From assembly GCA_963632375.1 (NCBI GenBank), contig CAVGUB010000111.1:81913-143369 (forward strand): a stretch of DNA of 61,457 nucleotides. Direction: 5' to 3'. This stretch comes from Phocaeicola dorei. Its GTDB lineage: Bacteria; Bacillota_I; Bacilli_A; RFN20; CAG-826. The translations under genes and the position numbers were made by a program. Positions 43,827-61,401 of this stretch are shown in pieces. The notes under the pieces are model-generated. The model saw only the letters and a list, made by a program, of their open reading frames with translations. It did not search any database and was not told the origin of the DNA. How positions within the stretch are numbered: position 1 is the first letter of the stretch; the number at the start of each line of letters is the position of its first letter.

Positions 43827-44105
43827 ATGTATATTCTCAATGCATTTAGCCTCCAAATGCTGGAAGATTATCCATGTGAAGTTCGCTTCACAGAAGTGGA
43901 TAGTCTTCCTGCCGGCTTGGAGAGTGCTGTTGGTCATGCTGACACGGCGGCGGTTCTTGGAGTTCCAATGAACCGCATCTCTGTCAAATTGGCGAAAGGC
44001 GACACTGCTTATGTTGCGCAACTCATAGGCGGTCGTCTCCCAGAGGGCAGCACAACTCTCCCGGAAGGCTTCTCTTTCAGATATCTGAAAGTAGAAGTTC
44101 TTTAA
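43827..44105 (+). CDS. DUF1874 (STIV B116-like) protein
   Basis: MYILNAFSLQML...ESAVGHADTAAVLG...GDTAYVAQLIGGRLPEGSTTLPEG matches my recollection of the B116/DUF1874 family. True ATG at 43827. Confidence 0.6.
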   Translation: MYILNAFSLQMLEDYPCEVRFTEVDSLPAGLESAVGHADTAAVLGVPMNRISVKLAKGDTAYVAQLIGGRLPEGSTTLPEGFSFRYLKVEVL

Positions 44106-44254
44106 GTCAACGGAGCCTGGGCGGAATGACCCAGAGGCAACCATTCCCATTCTTTGGCACGTGATGAGCGTTGTGGTTAAGTAGCCAAAGTAACTGTTTT
44201 GCAAGGTGCTCGTGTATATAGGATGAACCTTGTGTAATTATTAATCAGATTGTT
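44106..44254 (+). promoter_or_regulatory. Three-hairpin intergenic module, copy A
   Basis: Stems 44116-21/44130-35, 44152-58/44184-90 and 44202-07/44227-32. Loop sequences are conserved with copy B. Confidence 0.6.
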
Positions 44255-44473
44255 ATGGAAACAATTATGATTAACGGCCGCGCTTATGCGTGCACCTACG
44301 ACTGCGACTTCCAAGCAGACGGAGGTCGCATCTTCGGCGATGACGAGGCTGACCAGGAAATTGTCGGGTCGGTCTACATCGTCCGTAGAGACGATGGCGC
44401 AGAAGTTAGCGTCGAGAAATTCTATGGAGCCTCACATGAGGCCTTCATAAGAGAAATTCTCCGCAAATTTTAG
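44255..44473 (+). CDS. Hypothetical protein (72 aa)
   Basis: Intact ORF, G+C-rich, TAG stop. Confidence 0.55.
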   Translation: METIMINGRAYACTYDCDFQADGGRIFGDDEADQEIVGSVYIVRRDDGAEVSVEKFYGASHEAFIREILRKF

Positions 44474-44476
44474 GCC

Positions 44477-44621
44477 TAGGCATGGGTAGAAGATCCCATT
44501 GACAAACATTCCGCTCCCCAAAGATGTGATGAGCATTGGCGTTAAGTTACTTTGGGTAATTGTTTAATGGAGTTCTTGTGTATATAGAATGAACTCCTAT
44601 AATCCATAATTGTGTTAAGAT
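44477..44621 (+). promoter_or_regulatory. Three-hairpin intergenic module, copy B
   Basis: Stems 44482-86/44495-99, 44517-23/44550-56 and 44569-74/44592-97. Loops GTGATGAGCATTGGCGTTAAGT and CTTGTGTATATAGAATGA. Confidence 0.6.
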
Positions 44622-44861
44622 ATGATTATACACAAGATATGGGATCTCTGTGAAATCAAGAGACGAAATATGCGTGCATATCGCGCATTAACAAATCTCT
44701 TGAAATCCAACAATTTCGATGCATACTGCAAAGAAATCGAAGGTTTCGCAGAGATCGAGTGGCGTCCGTCACTCGTAAACGTCTATTACAACAACATGAT
44801 TGTTGTAATAGAAGTGAATGAGATTAACGGATCCATCGAAGATATTCGATGCGTGGATTAA
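44622..44861 (+). CDS. Hypothetical protein (79 aa)
   Basis: Intact ORF, TAA stop. Confidence 0.55.
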   Translation: MIIHKIWDLCEIKRRNMRAYRALTNLLKSNNFDAYCKEIEGFAEIEWRPSLVNVYYNNMIVVIEVNEINGSIEDIRCVD

Positions 44862-44916
44862 TCCACCACTCAAGGTAGCCAATGGGCTTCGAATGACAGG
44901 TAGGGCTGTCAGCCAA

Positions 44917-44966
44917 TACTCAGACATTTTCGGGTGTTTAAGATGGTTCGATTCCATCCTGAGTAC
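44917..44966 (+). ncRNA. tRNA-like minihelix (acceptor stem plus T arm only)
   Basis: TACTCAG (44917-23) pairs with CTGAGTA (44959-65). The T arm is GATGG TTCGATT CCATC (44942-58). Only 18 nt lie between them, so there is no D arm or anticodon arm. Confidence 0.45.
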
Positions 44967-45243
44967 TATTCCCGCACTGTGCGGGTGCAGCTGTGCAGTA
45001 AACAGCAAAGACGCTTGTAGACGAGCTGGTGATAGACAACACTATCCAGACATTTGTCTGTAATCAATCTATATGGATTGAGGTTGGAGTACGCCGAAGT
45101 ACAGTAAGCAGCACAGGTTAGGCACTGTGCGGTAATCCACATTTACGCGATGGGGGATGAAGAGCCAACAATGTTTGTATAGATTGATCCGAGAACACGT
45201 TGTTCTCAGGCATTGGGGAAGCCTTAAGACCCGTTTGACTACC

Positions 45244-45723
45244 ATGGCTATTACTATTATGCCTGTAAGTAGCGCATCTGAGGCCCACAAGAATGTGGGC
45301 CTATTCTGTGGTGAACTTTTCAAGTTCACCCAAGGTGAACTTGTGGTCTTCGGACCACAGGACACAAGGGCGTATGGATCTACGCCATTTAAGAAAAGCG
45401 TAATGCTTTCGGCCGTCTGTAAGGACGGCAAGGGGCATAAATTAATATTCCCAATCCAGGCATTGAGGCACAGGCCTCTAAAGCCTGTGAATCCTCAACA
45501 GTGGGACTCCCTGAAAAGGGAGTTCCCTATGTTGAGGGAGGCTATTATAGCCCCTCTGGGACATTTGGAGTATTACTCCAACATCCCAGAAGGGACATAT
45601 AGGATCGAGGTCCGAAAGGTCCTCGATCAGGCAAAAGCCGATGATGGGACTCTCGAGCAGTTCGAGAGGACCATCAACATCTTAGTACCTGCCCCTTCTA
45701 AGAGGGCAGGTTCTAAGAAGTAG
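45244..45723 (+). CDS. Hypothetical protein (159 aa)
   Basis: First ATG of track ORF 45157..45723. G+C-rich; TAG stop. Confidence 0.55.
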   Translation: MAITIMPVSSASEAHKNVGLFCGELFKFTQGELVVFGPQDTRAYGSTPFKKSVMLSAVCKDGKGHKLIFPIQALRHRPLKPVNPQQWDSLKREFPMLREAIIAPLGHLEYYSNIPEGTYRIEVRKVLDQAKADDGTLEQFERTINILVPAPSKRAGSKK

Positions 45724-45789
45724 CCGAAACTAGGGGGAGAGGGGAGTCTCTCCCCCTAGTCACAGGGGAGGTTGTTCTACCCCTGTCTG

Positions 45790-45960
45790 ATGATGGCAGA
45801 ACTATCAAAACAAAACAAACCAGAACAAGAAATGACATTCTGGGATCTCATGCGTGAGGCTGGGAAATATAATCTTCAGGAGGTTGCTCGTCAATACCTG
45901 AAGAGGGATTATGATCCAGCTACTGTGTGGGAAATTCTGGTAGAGGAATACAACCTCTAA
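45790..45960 (+). CDS. Small hypothetical protein (56 aa)
   Basis: First ATG of track ORF 45772..45960. Preceded by G+C-rich hairpins (CTAGGGGGAGAG...CTCTCCCCCTAG). Confidence 0.45.
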   Translation: MMAELSKQNKPEQEMTFWDLMREAGKYNLQEVARQYLKRDYDPATVWEILVEEYNL

Positions 45961-46195
45961 CAGTGTGAGCTGATATCTCACTGTCAACTATCCGGAGAAT
46001 GCATCAACCAATAAAAGGGTCTCCGTTAACAACTTGGCATAATTTTATTTAAAGGGGTGTGGCTTGCGCTACGCTCCTTATTTTTTTAAGGTGGAGGGGG
46101 AGCGTGCTTCGCTGCAGCTCGCACCGCTCGCCCTGCGGGGCACAAAGACATTTGCCAATATGTAGTGTATAACAATATTATTGCAAAATTTAATT

Positions 46196-46747
46196 ATGGC
46201 ATTGAGTAAATCTGACTCGCCAGTTGTATACACACAGACTGGCGTGACTGCCGTAACAGGCAGTCTTGAGAGCCTAAAGGGCTCTCACGTATCCTTCAAC
46301 GGATACGGTATCGATGTGAACGAGACCGTCACATTCGGTACTATTGAAGAGTACGGTCTCGATGGGAACATTAAGAGAGTTCCAACCTATAACGGTTCAA
46401 GCCGTTATAGCATCTTGGTACGTGTAAATCGTACCAAAAACGGAGTCACTAAAGACTCCTGGTTCAACATGGGCGTTTTATCACGTCAGTTGAACGCTGC
46501 TGATGGCAAATCTCTCCCTGTAGATAAATTCAGGGAAGATATGATTGCAATCGATGACGATTATAATCGATTGATTGCAATCGCGGGGAAAACCATCAAG
46601 GGTGTCGAAACGAAAAAAGCGTTTCGCCCTGTCTTTGAGCGTTCAAAGGACGCTCAAGGCAAACCGGTCTTCACTGTCGTGAAGAACGAGGACGGCTCCC
46701 GTAAAATGGAGCCTGCAGAGTACGTAGTTGTTGATTATGTTAAATAA
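46196..46747 (+). CDS. Hypothetical protein (183 aa)
   Basis: First ATG of track ORF 46181..46747. TAA stop. Confidence 0.6.
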   Translation: MALSKSDSPVVYTQTGVTAVTGSLESLKGSHVSFNGYGIDVNETVTFGTIEEYGLDGNIKRVPTYNGSSRYSILVRVNRTKNGVTKDSWFNMGVLSRQLNAADGKSLPVDKFREDMIAIDDDYNRLIAIAGKTIKGVETKKAFRPVFERSKDAQGKPVFTVVKNEDGSRKMEPAEYVVVDYVK

Positions 46748-46787
46748 TCAACAATTTACTGTACTCGGTGACCACTGAGAGAATTAT

Positions 46788-46837
46788 ATCATATCCAATG
46801 TAGGCAAATTGTTTGTCTGCAATGGATATGATTTTTT
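46788..46837 (+). terminator. Intrinsic terminator (21-bp imperfect hairpin plus T6)
   Basis: ATCATATCCAATGTAGGCAAA ttg TTTGTCTGCAATGGATATGAT TTTTT. Confidence 0.7.
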
Positions 46838-47309
46838 AAATCTCAGAGGTTACTGAACTTTAGAACCTTGTGGTGAATGTTATATCATCATTAGGTTCCA
46901 ATATCTTTAATCCAGAGTGGAGTGATATCCTATCTGGGTTCTAATGCATTCTTGCATTATTTTTATGTTTTTTTTATTTTTTTTGGACATCAAATCATTG
47001 ATCCCAATTCTAGTTACCGTGTTTTGCGCACTTGAGCGGTCGTTAGTTTGGATAAATCAATGGTTTGATATTATGTGTAAACGAAAAGTTAAAGTGCGCC
47101 ATTTACCCTGAGTGAGATATCAGGTAGCATAGAGATACATCTGTGCGAACTTAGGTTCCATGTAACAGTGGAGTTTCGAGCCTAAGAGTACAAGTTCGAA
47201 ACCTTGTACTAAATCCGAAGATGCTGAAGAAGTATCTGAATGTATCAACCCTATAATAGGTGTGTAACTTGCATGCATCTAGACTATTATGGGGTAACTT
47301 CCTTTATAA

Positions 47310-48074: not shown

Positions 48075-48075
48075 T

Positions 48076-48401: not shown

Positions 48402-48926
48402 CTAGTTTTGGATTGGTTCTGATTGAAATGTAACGATTAAATCTTTACGTTTTTTCAAGTCACCTTTTCAAAACATTTCTGGGTTGATAGTATATTCTCC
48501 TCTTAACGTTTTGATTTCACCTGTAGTTTTATCTACAGTTGATTCTGGATATAGTGCATGTACTTCAACCAATTGATTAATTGATTGCGTTAATGTACTT
48601 TTCTTGATATCAAGTTCAGCCATTATATCAACACGTCTTCCAGGTGATAGAGATACTTTACCTGTTTCCCATTCAGCGTATTCTAACAACTTATAAAGTA
48701 TTTTTAATGTTGTTAGGCTTTTAATACCATACATCCAACTAACACAGTTAAGAAATACCATATAAAATTTATCGTCATCATCGACTTTAAAGTTAATTTT
48801 CTTTTCTGTAGTTTGGACACGAGTTCTACCTTGTTCATCAATAACTTTTTGTTCTGATGAATATACTGTGAATTTTTTAGACATTTTTAAACTTTGTTTA
48901 TTTATAGTGATCTTTTGTTTATTCAA
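48402..48926 (-). CDS. Winged-helix DNA-binding protein (Rep/regulator-like)
   Basis: Track ORF 48468..48926. Its TGA (48468-48470) may be Trp, which extends the frame 22 codons to TAG 48402-48404. An iteron array lies upstream of its start. Confidence 0.5.
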
Positions 48927-49129: not shown

Positions 49130-49522
49130 ATGAAAACATTTGAACAATTCAAAGCATGGCTGAAAGACATTCACAGGTATGAATTCTTTACAAGCTTCAT
49201 GGAACCAAACGTCGATCCTTGTGATTTTTATCGCCAGTATGGCGAAAAATCAATTCTGGTAGCATCTAAACATGTACCCTGTGAAAAAGATTACTATGAG
49301 TTGAGAAGACTCGACATAATGTTTAGAGGGTTCCTAAACGGATATCCTGTATATGTACTTGATACAAAGAAGACTATAATAGCTAGCCTTTATAAGTCTG
49401 ACGATGTTACAAGTTCGGTTATCCGTGAGTTCAGGAGTTTATACCCAGGTGCGGAATTTGACGAAGATTGTTATGCTGTTTATGCATATAAACAGGAGAA
49501 AATTCTTCGAAAAATTGAGTAA
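49130..49522 (+). CDS. Hypothetical protein (130 aa)
   Basis: Intact ORF, TAA stop. Confidence 0.6.
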   Translation: MKTFEQFKAWLKDIHRYEFFTSFMEPNVDPCDFYRQYGEKSILVASKHVPCEKDYYELRRLDIMFRGFLNGYPVYVLDTKKTIIASLYKSDDVTSSVIREFRSLYPGAEFDEDCYAVYAYKQEKILRKIE

Positions 49523-49525
49523 AAA

Positions 49526-49578
49526 ATGGGGCAAAAACAGGCGTAGACATCACTCTATGCCTGTTTTCCCATTTTTTT
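49526..49578 (+). terminator. Intrinsic terminator
   Basis: ATGGGGCAAAAACAGGC ... GCCTGTTTTCCCAT followed by T7. Confidence 0.65.
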
Positions 49579-49827
49579 AATCTTCCTTTTTTCAAAAAAA
49601 ATATGGAATATTATTCATACCTCATTTTGAAAAACTCCAAACCCTATGGGGTTCGTCGTTTTTCAAATCCAAATGCTGTAAACTTCTACATTAAATACAC
49701 ATTACCGCGTATTTGTGCAGCTAAATATTCATACATATGTTTTTCTTATTCGAAATCTTAATCGGTTTTATTTTGTTTTGTTTGTCTATATTTTTTATAG
49801 TCGCAATATTTATACAATCATTATTTC

Positions 49828-49974
49828 ATGACAAGAAAAATTAAAGTGACTCGTAAAATCAAAGTGATTAACGAGCAAGGAAAAGAAACTTTTATACTTT
49901 CTACTTTTCCATGTAAAGTAAATGCTGCTGTTCCATTTGATCATAATATGGTGAAATATGAAAGGGCATTGTAG
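49828..49974 (+). CDS. Small basic ORF (48 aa)
   Basis: ATG 49828, TAG 49972-49974. Overlaps the next ORF by 17 nt. Confidence 0.3.
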   Translation: MTRKIKVTRKIKVINEQGKETFILSTFPCKVNAAVPFDHNMVKYERAL

Positions 49975-50299
49975 TCTTTATTCTTTTGACTCAGGAAAAC
50001 AATTTCTTGGTTATACTACTTCTTCTGAAGTTATAACCTTTCCTGAGGCTTATCCTATTACTATGGATATTTCAGATGTAAAACCTTCACACTATCCAGA
50101 TCTTGAATTAATCAATCTGGATGAACTTTTTACAACTAAAAGAACTACTGATAAAAGATTGGCTGAAGAACATATCACAACATTCACTGATTTGTACTAT
50201 TCCAATTACCTTATCAAACTTAATCTTCTTAAAAAGCCTGCAAATATCCGCCAACTTGTGTTAAACAAATATGCAGATGTGATGGAATATGAAGATTAA
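49958..50299 (+). CDS. Hypothetical protein (113 aa)
   Basis: Intact ORF. Overlaps the clpP start. Confidence 0.55.
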   Translation: MKGHCSLYSFDSGKQFLGYTTSSEVITFPEAYPITMDISDVKPSHYPDLELINLDELFTTKRTTDKRLAEEHITTFTDLYYSNYLIKLNLLKKPANIRQLVLNKYADVMEYED

Positions 50300-50867
50300 A
50301 GACTATTTAATATCTCCAACAATAATTGAAGAACGCAAACTTAACGTTACTTCAATTAGCGTGTTTGATCGTTTGTTAATGGATCGTATCATCTTTCTTG
50401 GTACAGAAATCGATGACGATGTTGCGAACATCATTCAGGCACAATTACTTTACTTATCCTCTTTGTCTTCTGAGGATATTACTCTTTACATTAACTCTCC
50501 AGGAGGTAGTGTTACTGCTGGTTTAGGTATCTATGATACTATTCAACACATTAAACCAAAAGTAAATACAATTTGTACTGGTTTAGCAGCTTCTATGGCT
50601 GCTGTTCTTCTTTGTTCTGGTAATACTCGTTCTGCATTACCACATTCAAAAATGATGATTCATCAGCCAATGTCTGCAGTTGCAGGTCAAGCATCTGATA
50701 TCATTATTGAAGCTGAAGAAATTAAAAAATGTAAAGATGAACTTGCAAAACTAATAGCACATCATTGTAAACAAGACTTAATCAAAGTTCTTAAAGACAT
50801 AGATCGTGACTTTTGGTTAACTGCAAGTGAAGCTGTTCAATATGGACTCATAGATAAAGTCCTTTAA
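50289..50867 (+). CDS. clpP: ATP-dependent Clp protease proteolytic subunit ClpP
   Basis: RIIFLGTEIDDDVANIIQAQLLYL...LYINSPGGSVTAGLGIYDTIQ...GLAASMAA...MIHQP...WLTASEAVQYGLIDKV aligns along its whole length with cellular ClpP, including the Ser and His catalytic motifs. Confidence 0.9.
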   Translation: MKIKDYLISPTIIEERKLNVTSISVFDRLLMDRIIFLGTEIDDDVANIIQAQLLYLSSLSSEDITLYINSPGGSVTAGLGIYDTIQHIKPKVNTICTGLAASMAAVLLCSGNTRSALPHSKMMIHQPMSAVAGQASDIIIEAEEIKKCKDELAKLIAHHCKQDLIKVLKDIDRDFWLTASEAVQYGLIDKVL

Positions 50868-51162
50868 AACTACAAATCATCCTGTAATGACGGGACAAAA
50901 TAGTGCTTCGTAGCATTGACACAAACCTAGGTGAAAGTTGATGTACTGCATGAATCCAAATATGTTTATTGGCCAAATGATAATAGGATTCGTTCTTTAC
51001 AGTTAAAACATGATAATACTGTACAGATTATATTGTAGTTTGGTGTGGAGAAGGTGATACTTCTCCACATTTCTAATAGAAGGTTTTGTCAGAACCTCCG
51101 TTCTCTATAATACCGATTTTCATTTATTAACGCCTACTTTTTCACGAATAAATCGGTATTTA

Positions 51163-51226: not shown

Positions 51227-51244
51227 CTAAAAACAACACAAATT

Positions 51245-53366: not shown

Positions 53367-53393
53367 CAAGAGTTTTTATATACTCATTTTTTA

Positions 53394-53559: not shown

Positions 53560-53583
53560 GATAATTAAAAAAATTAAAAAAAT

Positions 53584-54978
53584 ATGGATAAATTTCTTGA
53601 AGCAATCAGTACAAAAAATACTTATACTGATAACGGAGCTTTAACTAACAGTACTTCTTTAAATAAGTGCTTAGACTTTTTTTCAATAGCAGGTAATCAT
53701 ATTGAGAATATAGAATCTTTTGAAGCAGCTTATGGAGAAGATCCACAACTTGCTTTAAGAATTTTATTTTGGAGTAGAGATTGTAGAGGTGGTGCTGGTG
53801 CTCGTAAAAACTTTATTGCTGTAATGAAGAAACTTCAAGTTGAAAAACCTGATGTTTTTTCTAAAGTCTTTAAGTTTATACCTGAATTTGGCTATTGGAA
53901 AGATATTTACAATCTAAAGCCCACACAAGAAGTTGTTAGTTTTGTTGCTAAAACATTAAAGAATGATACAGATCATTCTTTATGTGCTAAATACTGTCCT
54001 CGTAAAGGAGAATGGTTTTATCATCTTCGTGTTCGTTTTAAAATGTCTTTAGCTCAATTTAGACATTTTATTGTTAAGAAAACTCAAGTAGTTGAAAACC
54101 AAATATGCAAGAAAGAATGGAATGAAATAGAATATTCTTCTGTTCCTTCTGTGGCAAATCTTCGTTACAAAGAAATATTTACAAAATATGATTTTAAACG
54201 TTATAGGGAGTATATTAAATCTGTTCTTAAAGGAGAAAATAAGATTAATTCCTCTGTTTTGTTTCCAAATCAAATATTTCATAATTGGGACATTGGTTTA
54301 AGAAAGGATGGGGATACTGCTAAAGCCTTGTGGGATAATCTTCCTAATTATATGGAAGGTTGTACAGAAAGAATTCTTCCTGTATGTGATGTGTCAGGTT
54401 CTATGTGTGGTACTCCATTAGAAGTTTCTATTGCTTTGGGTTGTTATATTTCAGAACGTAATGAAGGACCTTTTAAAGATGCTTTTATAACGTTTAGTGG
54501 AAAACCTCAAATTAATATCTTAACTGGTGATATTATATCACGTTTCTCGCAGTTATCTAATGCAGATTGGGGATATAATACAAATCTTCAAGCTGTATTT
54601 GATTTGATTTTAAAACGAGCATTGGAAAACAATCTTTCTAATGACGATATGCCATCTAAGATATTGATCATAAGTGATATGCAATTTGACAAAGCCTTGA
54701 AAAATAGAGAAAGATTTGGAAATCCCGAAATCACTAATTATGAGGCAATTAAAGATGCATATGCTTCGTATGGTTATAACCTTCCTGGTATAATCTTTTG
54801 GAATGTTAATGGAGATGCTGGTAAAGTTCCTGTTACAATGAAAGACTTTAACACTGCCCTTGTGTCAGGATATTCTCCTAGTATTCTAACATCCATTCTT
54901 AAAGGTAAAGTATTAACTCCAATAGACGTTATGCTAAATACCGTAAATAGTGAACGATATAAAAACATAAAATTATAA
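53584..54978 (+). CDS. DUF2828-like protein with C-terminal vWA (MIDAS DxSxS) domain
   Basis: N-terminus ...YTDNGALTNSTSLNKCLDFF...LALRILFWSRDCRGGAGARKNF and VCDVSGSMCG fit the DUF2828/vWA architecture as I recall it. Confidence 0.6.
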   Translation: MDKFLEAISTKNTYTDNGALTNSTSLNKCLDFFSIAGNHIENIESFEAAYGEDPQLALRILFWSRDCRGGAGARKNFIAVMKKLQVEKPDVFSKVFKFIPEFGYWKDIYNLKPTQEVVSFVAKTLKNDTDHSLCAKYCPRKGEWFYHLRVRFKMSLAQFRHFIVKKTQVVENQICKKEWNEIEYSSVPSVANLRYKEIFTKYDFKRYREYIKSVLKGENKINSSVLFPNQIFHNWDIGLRKDGDTAKALWDNLPNYMEGCTERILPVCDVSGSMCGTPLEVSIALGCYISERNEGPFKDAFITFSGKPQINILTGDIISRFSQLSNADWGYNTNLQAVFDLILKRALENNLSNDDMPSKILIISDMQFDKALKNRERFGNPEITNYEAIKDAYASYGYNLPGIIFWNVNGDAGKVPVTMKDFNTALVSGYSPSILTSILKGKVLTPIDVMLNTVNSERYKNIKL

Positions 54979-55052
54979 AAATGGTATAAAAATTGAAGTA
55001 TATATAAAAATATAGAATGCCAGAATGATGAAATGGAAGCCATGAGGGACTT

Positions 55053-56035
55053 TTGCGGTAGACATAAAGATTTTTTGTCTTTGTGTTTGCCATATTCTAA
55101 ATTATTTTGTATATTTGTACGATCTTTTAACAATTAAATTTTATTAAAATGAAAAATAAGTACACAAAAGAAGATTTAGAAAATGTAGCAAAACAATGTT
55201 TGTCGTGACGACAAATGCTTTTACATTATGGATTAAGAGAGACTGGAGGAAATTATACAGCTATGCATAATAGATGTAAAAAATATGAGATAGATACTTC
55301 TCATTTTACTGGTCAGGGTTGAAATAAAGAAGGACATGAGAATTTTGCTGGTAATATAGATTTGCAAAAAAGATTCTCTATTCATAAGAAAAAACAACCT
55401 TCTTCTAAAACTAAAGAAGTTTTATTAATGCATAATTTAAAAGAAAATAAGTGTGAAATTTGTGGATGTACAGAATGACAAGGAAAACCAATTATTCTTC
55501 AATTACATCATAAAAATGGTAATCCATTTGATGATAGATTGGAGAATCTTCAAATTCTTTGTCCTAATTGTCACTCACAAACGGATACTTATTGTAAAAG
55601 ACATAAAATACGAAAATCTATAAATTTGAGTGCACTGAAGGAAACTTCGGATGTAGAACTACCCTAATTCGGTGAAAATCCTAAATCCTAATCAAGGTCG
55701 TAATGAAAACACGACGTTAAATAAACTAGGAAGTTGGATTGGACAACGCCGAGCTAAATTGAATATTAAAGAAGAGACACACGGAAGGCCCGTCAATTAG
55801 TATTCATAAATGTGTAGAGCACATAGAGGTAGAACCTAAGTTAGAAATTATGAGTATCCCCAGACTCGGTGACAGGATTATATCCTCAGGGACCAATAAG
55901 GGTGTAAGGAGAAAGTAACTTGCAAGATTTCTAATACGGTTAAGACATGTGCCGGACTACAACAACTTGAATGCGAAATTTTACAGCACCATTTAAGACT
56001 GGTTCAAGTTGGCTATGGTAACATAGAGTAGTAGG
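55053..56035 (+). mobile_element. Putative group I intron in tRNA-Leu(UAA) carrying an HNH ORF
   Basis: 983 nt sit between anticodon positions 34 and 35. It ends in G and has a CTATG-GTAA-CATAG hairpin (GNRA tetraloop, 56013-56026) 9 nt from its 3' end. About 370 nt of ORF-free sequence follow the ORF. Confidence 0.55.
55149..55667 (+). CDS. HNH homing endonuclease (172 aa)
   Basis: ...YEIDTSHFTGQG-W-NKEGH... and LQLHHKNGNPFDDRLENLQILCPNCHSQTD (HNH). Three in-frame TGA at 55206, 55320 and 55476. TAA at 55665-55667. Confidence 0.85.
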
Positions 56036-56091
56036 AAAATCCCTTGGGCAGCAATGCCCGTGTGGGTTCGAATCCCACTTCTGGTACTTAT

Positions 56092-56162
56092 TGAGATGTA
56101 GTATAATGGTAATACAAAAGATTTTGGTTCTTTTATTCAAGGTTCGAATCCTTGCATCTCAA
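56092..56162 (+). tRNA. tRNA-Gln (anticodon TTG)
   Basis: Acceptor TGAGATG/CATCTCA. D arm GTAT-AATGGTA-ATAC. Anticodon arm AAAGA-TTTTGGT-TCTTT. T arm CAAGG-TTCGAAT-CCTTG. Confidence 0.85.
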
Positions 56163-56196
56163 CGAGTTTTATACTCATGGTATTTTTATTTGACAA

Positions 56197-56231
56197 ATGG
56201 AGTATGCTGTGAAGTATACTCCATTTTTTTT
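56197..56231 (+). terminator. Intrinsic terminator after the tRNA cluster
   Basis: ATGGAGTAT gctgtgaagt ATACTCCAT followed by T8. Confidence 0.65.
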
Positions 56232-56446
56232 AATTTTATTAAAATTATATAAAATGGAATTTACTTTATCAAATATTAAATTTTGGTTATCATCTAATAT
56301 TAAAGATTATCTCATTTTAAGATATTCTCAAAATGATGTTTAACCTGATATCGAAATTAATGATATGTTCAATAATTTATTAAAAGCTTTGAACATTAAG
56401 AATACTGATATAAATCAAGAACTTATATTTAAAAATTTTAAATAAA

Positions 56447-56779
56447 ATGGATAATTCAGAACTTAAATCATTGATGTATGAATATGTAGTTGATTTGTTA
56501 AGCTATGAAGATTATCACAATTTCGGAAGTCCTGAGAAATTTCATAAATGGGTTGATGAAAATTATGAGCCAATAAAAAAGTCAAATCTTATCAAAGGAC
56601 AGATTTATGATGGAATTTGTAGAAATGCCTCAAGAGCAACTTGGGATGGTGAAAAGTTTCATTATGAAAGAACAAAATTTAGAAGAACTTATGATGAAGT
56701 AATAAATCATTATGAAGATGACGATGGTTATGGTTATGATGTTTTTGTCCCCATAAAAAGAATTAACGATTGTGATTAA
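56447..56779 (+). CDS. Hypothetical protein (110 aa)
   Basis: Intact ORF. Confidence 0.55.
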   Translation: MDNSELKSLMYEYVVDLLSYEDYHNFGSPEKFHKWVDENYEPIKKSNLIKGQIYDGICRNASRATWDGEKFHYERTKFRRTYDEVINHYEDDDGYGYDVFVPIKRINDCD

Positions 56780-56893
56780 GTTATATTTCATATCTTTACG
56801 GCAACAGAAATTGACGTATAGCCGAAATGAATTATAATAATTAAATTTTATAAAAAGTTTAAAGTAACATTTACGTTTAAAAAATAATGAGCA

Positions 56894-57268
56894 ATGAGAC
56901 AAGAACCATTTGAAAGAGACCATCCAATAGCAGCAAAGATATACGAGGAATACAAGAAGGATTTAACATTGGAACCCGATCATATCAGACATATGCTTGC
57001 TGACCTTGAAATAGAGTGTGATACCCAGTTTCACGGAGAATCATCTGTAAAGATTAAAGAACTTGAGAAAAAGGTTAAGGAACTTGAAGCACTAAATGAT
57101 TATCAGCAGAAACCGGAATCTGAATATACTGCGACATGGCTTGCTGCGAAATTAAATGCAATTGGATATAAGGGCAAACTAACAAGGGAAACACCCTTCT
57201 TTAATAGTGCAGTGTCAGACTCTAAACGAGTAGGATTATACATTGAAACACTTAATATTGGGGAATAA
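56894..57268 (+). CDS. Hypothetical protein (124 aa)
   Basis: Intact ORF. Confidence 0.55.
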   Translation: MRQEPFERDHPIAAKIYEEYKKDLTLEPDHIRHMLADLEIECDTQFHGESSVKIKELEKKVKELEALNDYQQKPESEYTATWLAAKLNAIGYKGKLTRETPFFNSAVSDSKRVGLYIETLNIGE

Positions 57269-57279
57269 CATTATAAGTT

Positions 57280-57690
57280 ATGAACACAAATGATTTAATG
57301 CTTAATGATTGGATTCTTCATATAGATGAAAAGGAGCCTGGCCAAGTTTATGAAATACGTGACGATTTTATTGAGATAGATATTGATTTATCTCAAGAAG
57401 GTCAAGAAGGTCAAGAATGTTGGATTGACGGAGACCCCGATGATTTTGAAGGAATACCATTGACAGAAGAGATGTTGAAATTAAATGGATGGGATAAGTA
57501 TCCATTTCAAAACTATTTGTCTAACAAGAAAGTAATAGAGTTTTGTTTGCATAATGCCGGCATTGGGTTTTATTGTTCTAATGAAAACGGAGAAAATGAT
57601 ATTGTAAATATTCACTATGTCCATGAACTTCAGCACTTGTTACGAATTTTTGGATATGGCGATTTAGCAAATGATTTTAAGATTAAATAA
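57280..57690 (+). CDS. Hypothetical protein (136 aa)
   Basis: Intact ORF. Confidence 0.55.
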   Translation: MNTNDLMLNDWILHIDEKEPGQVYEIRDDFIEIDIDLSQEGQEGQECWIDGDPDDFEGIPLTEEMLKLNGWDKYPFQNYLSNKKVIEFCLHNAGIGFYCSNENGENDIVNIHYVHELQHLLRIFGYGDLANDFKIK

Positions 57691-57840
57691 TTATGTTAAA
57701 CATTGCAGAAATTTTGAAAGATTGTCCTAAAGGGACAAAACTTTATTCACCAGCATTTGGAACAGTAGCGTTAGACAAGGTAGAGGATAATAATTGGATT
57801 TCTATATAATGGGAAATAGTAAAACAAACGAAGAGTAGTT

Positions 57841-58119
57841 ATGAGGACAGTAATACAGTGTACACTATGTCGCAGTGGCTCTATTAACATTCTCCGTAAA
57901 CTGGAGAAGGAAGTTATGGAAGATGGAAGCGAACGCGGTTATTCAACCATTTTAATTCCAAGTGCAGAGGCTCCAGTATATGTAGTAGCTCAGTACAATG
58001 ATTGCGATAAGATGGTAGATACATTTAGCAACAGAGATGAAGGTGAGATAGTCATTAGTAAGGAAGAGTGGGAGGAACGAGTGAATGAATTTATTGAATC
58101 AGTCAGAAAATTACTATAG
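57841..58119 (+). CDS. Hypothetical protein (92 aa)
   Basis: Intact ORF, TAG stop. Confidence 0.5.
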   Translation: MRTVIQCTLCRSGSINILRKLEKEVMEDGSERGYSTILIPSAEAPVYVVAQYNDCDKMVDTFSNRDEGEIVISKEEWEERVNEFIESVRKLL

Positions 58120-58185
58120 TAAGTAGTCCTGTCCATATCGCAATTCCTTACAACGATGACACAAAACATCTCGTAGGTACAACAG

Positions 58186-58380
58186 ATGATTGTCCGGAAT
58201 ATTATAAATGATGAGAAGATTATGGAGAATAAATATACTCTTGAGGAAGTACTCTCTATCCTTGATGCTATGTTTATGGATTATTCTGACATATCGGTTG
58301 ATGATTGGTTCAGAGATAACCCAAGATTGTTTCAAGGGCGAGAGGAATTTATTGAAAGAATGAAATCAAAATATGAATAA
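58186..58380 (+). CDS. Hypothetical protein (64 aa)
   Basis: Intact ORF. The minus-strand ORF 58114..58335 overlapping it looks spurious. Confidence 0.45.
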   Translation: MIVRNIINDEKIMENKYTLEEVLSILDAMFMDYSDISVDDWFRDNPRLFQGREEFIERMKSKYE

Positions 58381-58383
58381 AAT

Positions 58384-58989
58384 ATGAAATATGTATTTTT
58401 TATTTGTTTAGGATTACTTTGTATACTGATTGCAGGGTACATTTTAGTCTCATTCTATAGATTGGGACGTATCCTTTTCTTTAGACACAAGCATAAAAAT
58501 CTATCTTGGGCTGCTGCTGATATTGGCAATTTAGACCATGATATATTTGTACCAGGAGGCCTTAGTGTTATTGAAGAAGGCTCTATGAGTGGTTGGGACG
58601 CAACAGTAGGCCCAAGTCCTGCAGGATGGCCAATTGCTACAACTATGACTTGGAATTATAGATTGTACAAATCGGTAATGTACTACTATTTTCAGGTAGA
58701 TTACCATGAAAGAGTTCTATTTTGGACTTTTGATTATCCTTATGCGGTTTGTAAAATTCCCAAAAGATATGTTGGCAATATAGATACCGATAGAGAGGTG
58801 AGAATGGATACTCTTTGGGATATTACATATCAACTATTGCATGGACGATATGAATTGGAGAAATATTTTCCGAAACCTAAATGTGAGCATATCAACGGCC
58901 ATTCTGTAAAACTTGAAGGCGTATATGAATGTACATTTAAAGATTACCTTGTGATATGTAATACAGAAGATAGTGGTGATAATTGGTAA
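58384..58989 (+). CDS. Membrane-anchored hypothetical protein (201 aa)
   Basis: N-terminal hydrophobic helix. Seven Trp, all encoded TGG. Confidence 0.55.
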   Translation: MKYVFFICLGLLCILIAGYILVSFYRLGRILFFRHKHKNLSWAAADIGNLDHDIFVPGGLSVIEEGSMSGWDATVGPSPAGWPIATTMTWNYRLYKSVMYYYFQVDYHERVLFWTFDYPYAVCKIPKRYVGNIDTDREVRMDTLWDITYQLLHGRYELEKYFPKPKCEHINGHSVKLEGVYECTFKDYLVICNTEDSGDNW

Positions 58990-59115
58990 AATAATATTAA
59001 GTTTAGAACTTATATTACTCTTAGCTTCATGTTCTCCCGTTGAAAATACAAGAGTTATAATAGTTACACCTAATCAATTAGATTCACTTGTAAATAATTT
59101 AAAAATAGAATAATT

Positions 59116-59727
59116 ATGGGTTATTCAACAACTTTTAGATTAAAAGGTGAAATTGATGAACGATTTCAACCAAATAAATATAGGGTTCCAAATGTATCCA
59201 AATCTATGTCAATTTTAACTGCAATTTGTTTACATAAATTTGTTATTGAGACTAAAACATTTTGTTTTTATACAACATTTGAACAAATTTATGAAAATTT
59301 AAGATTTGCGTTACATGAACTTATTTGTGATGTTGAACAAGTTGTTAAACAAAATTTTGTTTTAGATAAAAATAAAGAAATTTATTTTTACGGTTGGCAA
59401 TATTCAGATGAATCTTCACGTTTAGGATTTGATACACTTGAAGAATTTGAAAAATGTATTCTTGATCAATTGTTTCAAATAGTTGCTTGTCCTACTTCTA
59501 CAAGATTTGATAAAAATCATGAAGATTTTAACGAAAAAGAAGACCAAATATCAGATATTCTCAATGATATCGAATATGAAGTTAAAGAAATTGTAACATT
59601 TAATTTTGTACAATATTATCGTGAGCATCCAGAACTTGCAGATGAAGATGACGGCATAAAACATTTCTTCCCTAAAAAAGAAACTGAAAAACAATCTGAA
59701 GAAAAAACAGATGGGACAAACAAATAA
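59116..59727 (+). CDS. Hypothetical protein (203 aa)
   Basis: Intact ORF. Confidence 0.55.
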   Translation: MGYSTTFRLKGEIDERFQPNKYRVPNVSKSMSILTAICLHKFVIETKTFCFYTTFEQIYENLRFALHELICDVEQVVKQNFVLDKNKEIYFYGWQYSDESSRLGFDTLEEFEKCILDQLFQIVACPTSTRFDKNHEDFNEKEDQISDILNDIEYEVKEIVTFNFVQYYREHPELADEDDGIKHFFPKKETEKQSEEKTDGTNK

Positions 59728-60193
59728 TATCATATTTCTTGATATTGATGGGGTTTTGAATTACACAAAGTGGTATCAAGGTCTTATTCATTATAAGTAT
59801 CTTGATGAGGAAGATCTTGATCCAATTTGTGTAGAACGTGTTAAAATCATTTGTGAAATTTGTGATGCTAAAATTGTTATATCATCTGATTGGAGATTGG
59901 ATTGGGATGTCACTTTGAAACGATTGTCTAAATTTGGTTTAGATAATAATTTTATTATTGATAAAACACCATTTTTAAATTTTTTAGAAGTTAAAAACAT
60001 TAATCGAGGTAAAGAAATAGACGAATGGTTAAAAAACAATAAATGTGATAATTATCTAATTTTAGATGATATGCGAGGTATTCAGAAAAACTTTACTAAA
60101 GAGCAAATAAAGCATTTAGTTTGGATAGATCCATTTTATGGATTGACAAATAAACACGTTAAACAATCATTAAATATCTTTAATATCTTGTAA
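59711..60193 (+). CDS. HAD-like hydrolase
   Basis: The N-terminal IIFLDIDGVLN motif and later ISSDWR / LILDD segments fit a HAD-fold phosphatase. Confidence 0.5.
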   Translation: MGQTNNIIFLDIDGVLNYTKWYQGLIHYKYLDEEDLDPICVERVKIICEICDAKIVISSDWRLDWDVTLKRLSKFGLDNNFIIDKTPFLNFLEVKNINRGKEIDEWLKNNKCDNYLILDDMRGIQKNFTKEQIKHLVWIDPFYGLTNKHVKQSLNIFNIL

Positions 60194-60194
60194 T

Positions 60195-60701
60195 ATGAAA
60201 AAAATCTTTTTAGCATTTTTTGTTGTTTTGTTTTGTTCTTGTACACCACATCATTTTGATTTTAAAGGTGTTGAACTTGATGGGACAATTCAACAATTCA
60301 CAAGAAATGCTATTAAATATGGATGGGAGCCTACAGGATATGTAGATTCACTTCCTGTGTTTAAGACAACATTATTTGGTGAAAAAGTAATTGTTACTCC
60401 ATTGTTATATGCAGATGAATTTGTCTATGGTGTTGCCATTACTAACGGCAAAATCTATAATGATTTTTTGCCAAGTCAGTTGCATAAAGAAATGGTTAAT
60501 AAGTTCAGTGGAACAGGTGTCATACCTCAATACGAGGAAGGCTATGATTTTCATAAAACAACTTTTACTTTTAAGAAAGGTAGAATAGTTATATATACTT
60601 GTTCTCCAACACCAACAACTTTTGGAGCATCTAATTTTGTTTATTATATTGATAATCAAAATTATGACAATATGGAATATTATCAGAAAAATGATATGTA
60701 A
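60195..60701 (+). CDS. Lipoprotein
   Basis: MKKIFLAFFVVLFCSCTPHH is a signal peptide followed by a lipobox-like Cys. Confidence 0.6.
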   Translation: MKKIFLAFFVVLFCSCTPHHFDFKGVELDGTIQQFTRNAIKYGWEPTGYVDSLPVFKTTLFGEKVIVTPLLYADEFVYGVAITNGKIYNDFLPSQLHKEMVNKFSGTGVIPQYEEGYDFHKTTFTFKKGRIVIYTCSPTPTTFGASNFVYYIDNQNYDNMEYYQKNDM

Positions 60702-60703
60702 TT

Positions 60704-61168
60704 ATGGGGACTAATGTTTATTGGATTAAGCCTATTACAGAGCTTGAGAAAGACGAATTGAAAAAAGTAGTTGATTCTGTTGACAATTATGAGGATCTTG
60801 TCGAAAAGATGGATGATGTACTTAAGTATCAGTATACCTATCTATTAGGTGACTCAACTCATAAGGTCCATATCGGCAAACGGAGTTCCGGGTGGAAGTT
60901 CTTGTTTTCCCTGGGACTGCGGAATCATCTCGACATCGACCATGATTTCAAGGAGAACCTGAGGAAATTCCTGGAAACGGGATTTATCGAGGACGAATAC
61001 GGTGAAAGATATGATTTTGACAAGTTCTGGCAGGAGTTCGTCGTAGATTTCCAAAATGGCATCGATTCAGAGGAATATAACAGAAAAAACCCTAATCAGA
61101 TGTATCCGGCAACTGATACATATCATTGTGGGTACAGGTTTACAAGTAGGGAAGTAGATTTTTCTTAA
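60704..61168 (+). CDS. Hypothetical protein (154 aa)
   Basis: Intact ORF, locally higher G+C. Confidence 0.55.
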   Translation: MGTNVYWIKPITELEKDELKKVVDSVDNYEDLVEKMDDVLKYQYTYLLGDSTHKVHIGKRSSGWKFLFSLGLRNHLDIDHDFKENLRKFLETGFIEDEYGERYDFDKFWQEFVVDFQNGIDSEEYNRKNPNQMYPATDTYHCGYRFTSREVDFS

Positions 61169-61182
61169 CTTAATAAGTATTT

Positions 61183-61401
61183 TTGAAAATGAATTGGATA
61201 ACTGAATTCTCAACAGCAGTTGATTGTTTAAAAAATCTTTCAATTACGAAAAAAGAAATTTTAGAAAGATTACAAAAAATTGACGAAGAAATTAGAATAA
61301 AACAAAATAATTTCGTAAATTTAAATAATGAAAAGGTTATCTCTTCTTTAGAAGAATTATATTTTTCTAAAGCTGTATTAGAAACAATACTTAACAAGTA
61401 G
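61183..61401 (+). CDS. Hypothetical coiled-coil protein (72 aa)
   Basis: Intact ORF, TAG stop. The minus-strand ORF 61170..61448 overlaps it and the following tRNA and looks spurious. Confidence 0.5.
   Translation: MKMNWITEFSTAVDCLKNLSITKKEILERLQKIDEEIRIKQNNFVNLNNEKVISSLEELYFSKAVLETILNK

What the first reader, a model, noticed from the sequence alone, without database searches (positions are those of the whole stretch)
43827..61401. Code-neutral early/auxiliary arm: no in-frame TGA, Trp only as TGG
Every plus-strand ORF from 43.8 to 61.4 kb is intact under the standard code, has no in-frame TGA and ends in TAA or TAG. Trp is written TGG, for example all seven Trp of 58384-58989. The late gene 32739-33671 does the opposite and writes all seven of its Trp as TGA with no TGG. 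The two arms are therefore not just differently biased. One is readable by an unmodified host translation apparatus and the other is not. There are two exceptions inside the early arm: the intron-borne HNH gene (three TGA) and possibly the minus-strand winged-helix gene (TGA 48468-48470). This fits a model in which a phage-driven switch to UGA=Trp gates late, lytic and homing functions. The switch component (suppressor tRNA or RF2 antagonist) is not in this window. All tRNAs here read Leu or Gln codons.
Basis: partly seen in the sequence, partly recalled or inferred. Interest (0 to 1): 0.75.

Follow-up and report, generated by a model that had tools for sequence, protein, structure and literature searches.

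The report
Stop-codon-recoded phage with standard-code early block
This is part of a roughly 143-kb crAss-like gut phage that writes most tryptophans in its structural, lysis and homing-endonuclease genes as the stop codon TGA but keeps a block of early genes free of TGA, a real and highly significant pattern that has already been published for this kind of phage.

Summary
In 42 late-arm genes Trp is written 131 times as TGA and 55 times as TGG. In 23 plus-strand genes at 49.1-61.4 kb it is 0 TGA and 49 TGG (Fisher p = 1e-21). Other A/G-ending codon choices and out-of-frame TGA counts are the same in both sets. TGA means Trp: TGA and TGG interchange at homologous sites in relatives of the late genes, and never in the early block. 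The HNH gene (3 TGA) sits in a group I intron that splits a tRNA-Leu(UAA) gene. The minus-strand winged-helix gene is a true TGA=Trp gene.

The missing switch was located. Relatives about 88% identical in DNA carry a tRNA with anticodon UCA about 2.8 kb beyond the window end, inside the TGA-free block.

Two corrections apply. The TGA-free region is a block of about 23 kb, not the whole strand: plus-strand genes further downstream in the relative carry TGA again. And 43.75-46.9 kb is a compositionally distinct GC-rich island.

The interpretation matches the published model for recoded crAss-like and other gut phages (Yutin 2021; Borges 2021). It is a new member of a known kind and of low interest. 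Side finds: a covariation-supported hammerhead ribozyme and tRNA-like elements.

The parts
65..43648 (-). Late (virion, packaging, tail, lysis) arm, decoded with TGA = Trp. Includes TerL 25803-28022 (10 TGA), portal 23352-25553, and a crAss-type capsid gene N-part 1718-2536 split by a homing-endonuclease ORF at 626-1573.
   Evidence: 131 TGA: 55 TGG; TerL about 30% identical to crAss-like phages; Crass_capsid, NUMOD domains; TGA/TGG interchange.
32739..34051 (+). Lysis pair inside the late arm: tail-lysozyme-like gene (7 TGA, 0 TGG) and a 126-aa hydrophobic protein (3 TGA, 0 TGG).
   Evidence: (Phage_lysozyme2, E = 1.6e-11).
43750..46900 (+). GC-rich island (42-51% GC) at the junction of the two arms. 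Contains a STIV_B116-like ORF 43827-44105 and ORFs 45157-45723, 45790-45960 and 46196-46747. All lack TGA, but codon usage differs from the rest of the phage.
   Evidence: The island is conserved in relatives L027, L030 and L031.
44874..45156 (+). Non-coding stretch 94% identical among three phages (flanking coding DNA is 66-81% identical). Includes an acceptor-stem plus T-arm tRNA-like module at about 44917-44966.
45719..45803 (+). Type II hammerhead ribozyme between two island ORFs.
   Evidence: 31 bits, below the gathering score of 37; 28 pairs, 100% paired, 10 with compensatory changes across 4 phages.
48402..48884 (-). Winged-helix/RepL-like DNA-binding gene with a genuine in-frame TGA = Trp at 48468-48470. 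It is preceded by a Bacteroidota-type promoter motif at 48924-48955.
49130..61401 (+). TGA-free block readable under the standard code: 23 genes including ClpP 50289-50867, an MGS-like gene 51490-51966, a DUF2828/DUF7788 RNA-binding protein 53584-54978 and HAD_SAK_2 59711-60193.
   Evidence: 0 TGA: 49 TGG; no TGG-to-TGA change against L011.
51163..51226 (+). tRNA-like element with acceptor, D and T arms but a truncated anticodon arm. Conserved in L011.
   Evidence: (47.7 bits to the tRNA model).
53283..53367 (+). tRNA-Leu(UAG).
55019..56087 (+). tRNA-Leu(UAA) gene split between U34 and A35. Exons 55019-55052 and 56036-56087; intron 55053-56035 of 983 nt. The intron carries the HNH ORF 55149-55667 (3 TGA, 0 TGG) with its own Bacteroidota-type promoter motif at 55086-55117.
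   Evidence: intronless allele in L011; partial Intron_gpI hit, E = 0.0055; HNH PHROG, E = 2e-42.
56092..56163 (+). tRNA-Gln(UUG).
61409..61457 (+). 5' part of a second tRNA-Gln(UUG), cut by the window end.
   Evidence: it corresponds to L011 10220-10291.

Best explanation
The window is 61 kb of a roughly 143-kb crAss-like phage, probably of the Zeta group, that uses TGA as a tryptophan codon in only part of its genome.

Proposed sequence of events:
1. The host ribosome reads TGA as stop. Only the TGA-free block can then be translated. This block runs from about 45-49 kb to the window end and about 7 kb further.
2. That block also encodes the tRNA genes, including a tRNA with anticodon UCA and discriminator G73, as in tRNA-Trp. 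This tRNA lies just beyond the window.
3. Once the suppressor tRNA accumulates and is charged with Trp, TGA is read through. Full-length proteins can then be made from the structural, packaging and lysis genes, the two homing-endonuclease ORFs and the winged-helix gene.

Shown here: the codon partition, TGA = Trp, selection against TGA in the early block, and the position of the suppressor tRNA in close relatives.
Inferred: the temporal order, charging of the tRNA with Trp by the host synthetase, and that gating is what the arrangement is for.
For: Partition: 131:55 against 0:49, p = 1e-21, with other codon preferences equal.

TGA is Trp.
- In TerL, TGA aligns with TGG in 9 columns among four relatives.
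- Window against L018 late genes: 15 TGA/TGG swaps among 87 conserved Trp positions.

Selection against TGA in the early block.
- 0 swaps among 35 conserved Trp positions against L011, although this block is more diverged (72.8% against 80.5% identical codons).
- A third phage, L027, has 0 in-frame TGA in the plus-strand block genes as called, all of which use TGG for Trp. L030 shows the same.

TGA acts as a true stop in island genes of relatives.
- The STIV_B116-like gene ends in TAA in the window and in TGA at the same position in L027/L028. L030 2444-2890 also ends in TGA.

Suppressor tRNA.
- Anticodon UCA, 73 nt, 55 bits to the general tRNA model, G73. It lies at L011 12986-13058 and identically in L012. 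It is co-oriented with TGA-free genes and followed by a 17-bp terminator hairpin.

Lineage and host signals.
- TerL and capsid are of crAss type.
- A Bacteroidota-type promoter motif occurs 9 times against 4.0 expected, and 7 of the 9 lie just upstream of genes.
- Only 5 of 65 genes have a Shine-Dalgarno-like motif.

Literature: the same pattern and model are described in PMC7886860 and bioRxiv 10.1101/2021.08.26.457843.
Against: - No expression data exist, so early and late are inferred from gene content and orientation.
- The suppressor tRNA was seen in relatives about 88% identical, not in this exact genome. The window stops 2.8 kb short of its position.
- Sequence similarity alone does not settle the tRNA's amino-acid identity: a tRNA-Cys scored slightly above a tRNA-Trp.
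- In L011 two small ORFs upstream of the tRNA carry one TGA each. Downstream plus-strand genes (RNase H and others) carry TGA, so the partition is not strictly by strand.
- The TGA share in late genes equals the general A-over-G bias, so there is no sign of positive selection for TGA.
- The host is not identified. Relatives are binned with Bacillota MAGs such as Faecalibacillus, while the sequence signals look Bacteroidota-like.
Confidence: 0.82

Rival explanations
1. By-product rather than timer. Once the phage carries a UGA-decoding tRNA, TGG drifts to TGA under AT mutation pressure wherever that is tolerated. Genes needed before the tRNA accumulates simply cannot tolerate it. The adaptive value of the suppressor would then lie elsewhere, for example in read-through damage to host or competitor proteins, and not in timing late gene expression.
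For: - The TGA share of Trp codons in late genes (0.70) matches the A-ending share of other two-fold codons (0.74-0.88).
- TGA and TGG interchange in both directions between close relatives (8 against 7).
- Six late genes have no TGA.
- An anti-host or anti-defence role is discussed in PMC7886860 and PMC12386605.
Against: - The lysis pair and both homing endonucleases use only TGA (16 of 16 Trp codons). This echoes the preferential recoding of lysis and intron-endonuclease genes reported by Borges et al..
- Whatever its origin, the arrangement necessarily delays these proteins until the tRNA is active.
Confidence: 0.3
2. The host itself reads TGA as Trp (a code-4 Mollicutes-like bacterium). 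The TGA-free block would then reflect recent acquisition or compositional bias rather than a code switch.
For: - Low GC (about 31%).
- Relatives are binned in MAGs of Bacillota, some related to Mollicutes.
- No host was identified directly.
Against: - A/G third-position preferences are identical in both arms, so bias does not explain 0 of 49.
- Avoidance of TGA is maintained in several diverged phages.
- TGA replaces TAA as the stop of a conserved island gene in relatives.
- The phage lineage carries its own tRNA(UCA).
- Bacteroidota-type promoters and near absence of Shine-Dalgarno motifs.
- The MAG genera named (Faecalibacillus, Roseburia, Lactobacillus and others) are taken here to use code 11. 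This rests on general knowledge, not on a test made here.
- Phages of hosts that share the phage's alternative code (code 25) have in-frame TGA in about 90% of genes.
Confidence: 0.03
3. TGA is decoded by another route: selenocysteine, glycine (code 25), or programmed read-through without a dedicated tRNA.
For: ARAGORN labels the UCA tRNA 'SeC'.
Against: - The tRNA is 73 nt with a short variable loop and scores 55 bits on the general tRNA model.
- 131 TGA codons spread over 36 genes interchange specifically with TGG and occasionally align with Tyr, never with Gly.
- Total Trp frequency is normal only if TGA counts as Trp.
Confidence: 0.02

Closest known systems
Zeta-group crAss-like phages with opal (TGA to Trp) reassignment (Yutin et al. 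2021, PMC7886860; phage Lera and proposed 'Echekviridae', PMC12386605)
   Same: - crAss-type TerL and capsid, low GC, large genome, two oppositely oriented gene blocks.
- A tRNA cluster in the non-structural block and a suppressor tRNA(UCA).
- TGA confined mostly to structural, packaging and lysis genes.
- Many introns with homing endonucleases that themselves contain TGA.
   Different: - The genome (143,369 bp) is slightly below the published 145-192 kb range.
- TerL is at most 46% identical to anything in the phage collection searched.
- Only a few tRNAs are seen here, against 20-30 in Lera.
- Phylogenetic placement was not tested.
TGA-recoded Agate and Jade phages and the general 'code change as lysis timer' model (Borges et al., bioRxiv 10.1101/2021.08.26.457843)
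   Same: - Standard-code-compatible early genes.
- Structural and lysis genes recoded.
- A suppressor tRNA encoded in a standard-code region.
- A group I intron endonuclease in an early gene written with TGA, so that it is made late.
- Variable recoding of replication genes.
   Different: - No phage RF1 or TrpRS 'code change module' was seen in the parts available.
- Different phage lineage (crAss-like TerL).
- Here the intron sits in a tRNA gene.
TAG to Gln recoded crAss-like and Lak phages (Ivanova 2014; Peters et al. 2022, PMC9523058)
   Same: The same logic of a phage-encoded suppressor tRNA with late genes recoded. Recoding was validated by metaproteomics for code 15.
   Different: A different stop codon and amino acid. 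No TAG recoding here: no in-frame TAG in any called gene.
Genetic code 4 of Mycoplasmatales and Entomoplasmatales and their phages
   Same: UGA is read as Trp by a tRNA-Trp(UCA).
   Different: In those organisms the reassignment is genome-wide and a property of the host. Here it is partial, phage-encoded and absent from one gene block.

Membership tests
Phage with partial TGA to Trp recoding infecting a standard-code host | In-frame TGA in conserved late genes (TerL, portal, capsid) | tested here: met
   TerL has 10, portal 3 and the capsid N-part 3 in-frame TGA.
Phage with partial TGA to Trp recoding infecting a standard-code host | TGA positions correspond to Trp in homologues | tested here: met
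   9 TerL columns show TGA against TGG. 15 swaps in 6,672 late codons against L018. W50 and W72 of the winged-helix gene also swap.
Phage with partial TGA to Trp recoding infecting a standard-code host | A set of genes free of in-frame TGA and readable by the host | tested here: met
   0 TGA against 49 TGG in 23 genes, p = 1e-21. Conserved in L011, L027 and L030.
Phage with partial TGA to Trp recoding infecting a standard-code host | Phage-encoded suppressor tRNA with anticodon UCA | tested here: inconclusive
   Absent from the window. Present in relatives about 88% identical at L011 12986-13058 and L012 6304-6376, 2.8 kb beyond the window end. This genome's own continuation could not be fetched.
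Phage with partial TGA to Trp recoding infecting a standard-code host | Host uses the standard code | tested here: inconclusive
   Evidence is indirect only: TGA stops in island genes of relatives, Bacteroidota-type promoters, few Shine-Dalgarno motifs, and co-binning with code-11 Bacillota MAGs.
Phage with partial TGA to Trp recoding infecting a standard-code host | Temporal order: TGA-free genes and the tRNA are expressed before recoded genes | not testable with these tools
   Needs time-resolved transcriptomics or proteomics.
Crassvirales (crAss-like phages), Zeta group | crAss-type TerL and major capsid protein | tested here: met
   TerL is 27-31% identical to many crAss-like phages, E down to 5e-50. 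Crass_capsid Pfam hit of 24.5 bits, just under the 27-bit cut-off, on the capsid N-part.
Crassvirales (crAss-like phages), Zeta group | [quoted passage not shown] | tested here: inconclusive
   The source contig is 143,369 bp and relatives are 141-180 kb. Two endonuclease insertions lie in the 61 kb seen: a demonstrated intron in tRNA-Leu and an endonuclease ORF splitting the capsid gene. Inteins occur in the TerL of relatives.
Crassvirales (crAss-like phages), Zeta group | Phylogenetic placement within Zeta; giant RNA polymerase gene block | not tested
   No Zeta reference sequences were available in the collections. The RNA polymerase region lies outside the window.
Hammerhead ribozyme, type II (Rfam RF02276) | Conserved core (CUGANGA, GAAA, UH cleavage site) with three helices supported by covariation | tested here: met
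   The core is intact in 4 phages, and the only core change is at the variable position N7. 28 pairs are 100% paired and 10 carry compensatory changes; slid controls give 40-53%. The Rfam score of 31 bits is below the gathering score of 37. Cleavage was not tested.
Group I intron in tRNA-Leu(UAA) | Insertion between U34 and A35, 5' exon ending in U, intron ending in G, group I catalytic core | tested here: inconclusive
   An intronless allele in L011 fixes the junction at CUU|AAAA. The intron ends in G. Only a partial, sub-threshold Intron_gpI match was found (21.6 bits, E = 0.0055). Splicing was not tested.

The most novel reading that the evidence does not exclude
The code switch may be one layer of a larger RNA-based early programme. 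The TGA-free block is unusually rich in RNA-processing features. These are a conserved type II hammerhead, two tRNA-like modules without anticodons, an intron-split tRNA, a Ro/TROVE-like RNA-binding protein and an RNA-repair HAD domain. It also contains a TGA-gated winged-helix protein with a host-type promoter. That protein could shut off the early block once the suppressor tRNA works, giving a coupled translational and transcriptional timer. The anticodon-less tRNA-like elements could act as processing signals or as decoys for host anticodon nucleases.
Probability: 0.1. Interest if true: 0.55.

Novelty: new member of a known kind. Interest (0 to 1): 0.22.

Why it matters
Partial stop-codon recoding is a way for a virus to keep a whole class of proteins untranslatable until it has reprogrammed the host ribosome's reading of one codon. 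This window is a clean, statistically strong example.

It adds two small points. In this lineage the suppressor tRNA sits inside the TGA-free block, and close relatives show selection against TGA only in that block.

It does not change the picture drawn by Yutin et al. (2021) and Borges et al. (2021/2022). Its practical value is for annotation: this genome must be called with code 4 in one part and code 11 in another. It could also serve as a well-defined test case for experiments on code switching.

Tried and rejected
- Megablast and blastn of 25 kb and of the GC island against the phage collection found nothing.
- Exact-pattern scans for the terminal tRNA-Gln in IMG/VR and JGI metagenomes found nothing. 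A scan for the suppressor anticodon arm gave one short, uninformative locus.
- MT835470.1, the best TerL hit in the phage collection (46%), was fetched whole. It has no tRNAs and no clear recoding, so it was dropped as a comparator.
- Loci found through the DUF2828 protein (L002-L010) are unrelated phages without suppressor tRNAs.
- Assigning the suppressor's amino acid by similarity to other phage tRNAs was ambiguous: Cys scored 19 and Trp 14. The Trp assignment rests on codon interchange and on G73.
- No Bacteroidota-type or convincing sigma-70 promoter was found in front of the suppressor tRNA. No theta/HDV-like or other ribozyme lies next to it.
- The ORF 58208-58411 (2 TGA) was rejected as spurious in favour of the conserved 58222-58380 ORF.
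- The long minus-strand ORFs at 43680-45142 were rejected in favour of the plus-strand STIV_B116-like gene and non-coding RNA.
- The first genome-contig scan with TerL found nothing. The second, profile-based scan gave only MAG bins, which is weak host evidence.
- No +4 nucleotide context bias or unusual position of TGA in late genes was seen.

Full report
**What the window is.**
The window comes from a phage. A large terminase (25803-28022, minus strand), a portal, tail-fibre-like proteins and lysis enzymes become full-length ORFs only if TGA is read as an amino acid. The terminase is 27-31% identical to many crAss-like phages and 46% identical to one unannotated human-gut phage record. The capsid N-part matches the Crass_capsid family, just under the cut-off. 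The protein database holds hundreds of closer relatives on contigs of 140-180 kb. The window's own contig is 143,369 bp. Two phages about 88-92% identical in DNA (ENA contigs of 143,005 and 141,547 bp) could be read in part, as loci L011, L012 and L018. These features fit the Zeta group of crAss-like phages, but that placement was not tested phylogenetically.

**Check of the observation.**
I called genes with TAA and TAG as the only stops and refined the calls with public gene calls on identical or related contigs.
- The late set (42 genes, 13,593 codons) has 131 in-frame TGA and 55 TGG.
- The 23 plus-strand genes from 49130 to 61401 (3,116 codons) have 0 TGA and 49 TGG. Fisher p = 1.2e-21.
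- All 70 genes of these sets, including five island/47-48 kb ORFs, end in TAA or TAG.
- This is not a general codon-bias difference. The A-ending share of Lys, Glu, Gln, Leu and Arg two-fold pairs is the same in both sets.
- Out-of-frame TGA is as common in the early genes as in the late ones.
- Total Trp frequency is equal only if TGA counts as Trp.

**TGA means tryptophan.**
- In the terminase, TGA in one phage aligns with TGG in another at nine columns among four relatives. It aligns with Tyr at two columns.
- Across 6,672 aligned late-arm codons between the window and L018 there are 54 conserved TGA, 18 conserved TGG and 15 TGA/TGG swaps, 8 in one direction and 7 in the other.

**Selection keeps the early block TGA-free.**
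- The window and L011 are more diverged in the early block than in the late arm (72.8% against 80.5% identical codons). Yet 35 conserved Trp codons are all TGG in both phages, with no swap.
- A third phage (L027) and a fourth (L030) also have no in-frame TGA in the plus-strand genes called in the block. Under the standard code used for those calls this means the genes stay intact at homologous length and write Trp as TGG.
- In relatives, TGA is used as a real stop in this region. The STIV_B116-like gene ends in TAA in the window and in TGA at the homologous codon in L027/L028. Another island gene in L030 also ends in TGA.
- This is direct evidence that the region is meant to be read while TGA still terminates.

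**The two exceptions.**
- *HNH ORF.* The ORF at 55149-55667 (3 TGA, 0 TGG; PHROG HNH endonuclease, E = 2e-42) lies in a 983-nt insertion that is absent from L011. There an intact tRNA-Leu(UAA) occupies the site. The junction falls between U34 and A35 of the anticodon. The 5' exon ends in U and the insert ends in G. A partial group I intron match follows the ORF.
- *Winged-helix gene.* The minus-strand gene 48402-48884 is highly conserved in L027 and L030, including the 22 residues after the TGA. Its other two Trp codons are TGG in the window but TGA in relatives. The TGA at 48468-48470 is therefore a Trp codon.
- *Capsid-intron endonuclease.* The ORF at 626-1573, with NUMOD domains and a GIY-YIG-like N-terminus, also writes all three Trp as TGA.

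**Where the switch is.**
No UCA-anticodon tRNA is in the window. The window ends inside a tRNA-Gln gene. In L011 and L012 an identical 73-nt tRNA with anticodon UCA lies 2.8 kb downstream of the homologue of the window's last gene, on the same strand and among TGA-free genes. It scores 55 bits on the general tRNA model and has a short variable loop and discriminator G73. By established knowledge G73 is a tRNA-Trp feature, whereas tRNA-Cys has U73. It is followed by a strong terminator-like hairpin. ARAGORN's 'SeC' label reflects only the anticodon. No release factor or TrpRS gene was seen in the parts available.

**Limits of the 'arm' picture.**
- In L011 the TGA-free state continues for about 7 kb beyond the window end, through IMPDH-like, AAA+, Cpn60, MgtC-like and other genes. 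Two small ORFs there carry one TGA each.
- After that, plus-strand genes carry TGA at late-gene density: RNase H has 3, the next two larger genes have 3 and at least 5, and a small ORF between them has 1.
- The standard-code region is therefore a block of about 23 kb, not the whole strand. Variable recoding of replication genes is also what Borges et al. reported.
- At the other end, 43.75-46.9 kb is a GC-rich island with different codon usage (GC3 0.44). Its lack of TGA should not be pooled with the early genes.

**Host.**
The host was not identified.
- Sequence signals resemble Bacteroidota. The motif TTTG-N18-22-TAnnTTTG occurs 9 times against 4.0 expected, and 7 of the 9 lie just upstream of a gene start on the right strand. 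Only 5 of 65 genes have a Shine-Dalgarno-like motif.
- Relatives' contigs, however, are binned in MAGs of Faecalibacillus, Roseburia, Clostridium and other Bacillota. iPHoP predictions in PMC12386605 name Faecalibacillus/Holdemanella for opal-recoded Zeta phages.
- Binning of a 31% GC phage with low-GC bacteria may reflect composition alone.
- All these candidates are taken to use the standard code. That rests on general knowledge and was not tested here.

**Mechanism and rivals.**
The best-supported reading is the published one. Early genes and the suppressor tRNA are expressed under the host's code. Once the tRNA is charged with Trp, recoded genes can be translated to full length. The first TGA sits at a median of 24% of gene length, so premature termination would give short fragments.

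One qualification arises from the data. The TGA share of Trp codons in late genes (0.70) is no higher than the A-over-G preference at other two-fold codons (0.74-0.88). The only visible selection is therefore avoidance in the early block. Recoding of late genes could be neutral drift under AT pressure once a suppressor exists, with gating as a consequence.

The exclusive use of TGA in the lysis pair and both homing endonucleases (16 of 16 Trp codons) points the other way. It is not significant on its own.

A code-4 host, and decoding of TGA as Sec or Gly, are both very unlikely for the reasons given above.

**Comparison with what is known.**
- Yutin et al. [quoted passage not shown] They also reported suppressor tRNAs and TGA-containing intron ORFs.
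- Borges et al. (bioRxiv 10.1101/2021.08.26.457843) proposed the timer model. They noted that a group I intron endonuclease in an early gene is preferentially written with TGA, so that it is made late.
- The Lera paper (PMC12386605) describes an opal-recoded Zeta phage with the same two-block layout.

The finding is therefore a correct rediscovery in a genome that has no close match in the phage collection searched.

**Things seen in passing.**
- *Hammerhead ribozyme.* A type II hammerhead lies at 45719-45803 between two island ORFs. The catalytic core is intact in four phages. All 28 proposed pairs form in every sequence and 10 carry compensatory changes; slid controls give 40-53% pairing.
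- *Conserved non-coding stretch.* The 283 nt at 44874-45156 are 94% identical among three phages whose flanking genes are 66-81% identical. The stretch contains an acceptor-plus-T-arm tRNA-like module and small hairpins with compensatory changes.
- *Second tRNA-like element.* The element at 51163-51226 has a truncated anticodon arm and is conserved in L011.

Together with the intron-split tRNA, a Ro/TROVE-like protein and an RNA-repair HAD domain, the early block looks heavily invested in RNA processing. Whether this connects to the code switch is open.

Noticed in passing
window 45719-45803 (+); also L027 5036-5118, L031 2734-2817, L030 2894-2977: Type II hammerhead ribozyme between two ORFs of the GC-rich island. 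The core (CUGANGA, GAAA, GUC) is intact in four phages. All 28 pairs form and 10 carry compensatory changes. Loop I (GUUCU) can pair with the invariant 3' flank (AGAAC). The Rfam score of 31 bits is below the gathering score of 37.
   Followed up: yes
window 43750-46900: GC-rich island (42-51% GC against about 31% elsewhere) at the junction of the divergent arms. It is conserved in relatives L027, L030 and L031. It encodes a STIV_B116-like protein (43827-44105) and three ORFs with no family match. Its function is unknown.
   Followed up: partly
window 44874-45156 (+): A 283-nt non-coding stretch 94% identical among three phages, with about 110 nt invariant, while neighbouring genes are 66-81% identical. 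It contains a tRNA-like acceptor-stem plus T-arm module (about 44917-44966) with a compensatory U-A to C-G change, and a hairpin at 44877-44890 with three compensatory pairs. The folding-energy z-score is only -1.8.
   Followed up: partly
window 51163-51226 (+); L011 about 2566-2628: tRNA-like element (47.7 bits to the tRNA model) with normal acceptor, D and T arms. Its anticodon arm is shortened to a 4-bp stem and a 4-5-nt loop, so it has no anticodon. It is conserved in the relative. It may be a processing signal or a decoy.
   Followed up: partly
window 55019-56087 (+): tRNA-Leu(UAA) gene interrupted between U34 and A35 by a 983-nt intron that carries an HNH endonuclease ORF. That is the same site as the classic cyanobacterial and plastid tRNA-Leu intron. 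The allele in L011 and L027 is intronless. A Bacteroidota-type promoter motif (55086-55117) precedes the HNH ORF inside the intron.
   Followed up: partly
window 65-2536 (-): The crAss-type capsid gene appears split. The N-part is 1718-2536, followed by a homing-endonuclease ORF at 626-1573 (NUMOD1 and I-HmuI NUMOD-like domains, GIY-YIG-like N-terminus, 3 TGA and 0 TGG), followed by a likely C-part at 65-484.
   Followed up: partly
window 48402-48955 (-): A winged-helix/RepL-like gene on the minus strand inside the early region. It has a Bacteroidota-type promoter motif and a conserved TGA = Trp codon. A paralogue lies next to it in L027. It is a candidate late-made regulator of the early block.
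   Followed up: partly
L027 3585-3863 / L028 166-444; L030 2444-2890: In relatives, two island genes end in TGA. In one of them the window has TAA at the same codon. The next TAA or TAG lies 25-34 codons downstream, so these proteins would gain a C-terminal extension after the code switch.
   Followed up: yes
window 3662-3692, 9728-9760, 28653-28684, 32669-32700, 48924-48955 (all -); 53466-53495, 55086-55117 (+): Seven matches to the Bacteroidota promoter consensus TTTG-N18-22-TAnnTTTG lie 30-90 nt upstream of gene starts on the correct strand. Shine-Dalgarno-like motifs are nearly absent (5 of 65 genes). In contrast, relatives are binned with Bacillota MAGs such as Faecalibacillus and Roseburia.
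   Followed up: partly
window 50289-50867, 53584-54978, 59711-60193; L011 11635-16868: The TGA-free block encodes ClpP, a DUF2828/DUF7788 (Ro/TROVE-like) RNA-binding protein and an RNA-repair-type HAD domain. In the relative it also encodes IMPDH-like, AAA+, Cpn60-like and MgtC-like proteins. This is an unusual auxiliary gene set.
   Followed up: no
L011 12962-13106: The suppressor tRNA(UCA) of the relative is preceded by a 7-bp hairpin and followed by a 17-bp hairpin with a T-tract. It looks like a self-contained transcription unit. No recognisable promoter was found upstream.
   Followed up: partly
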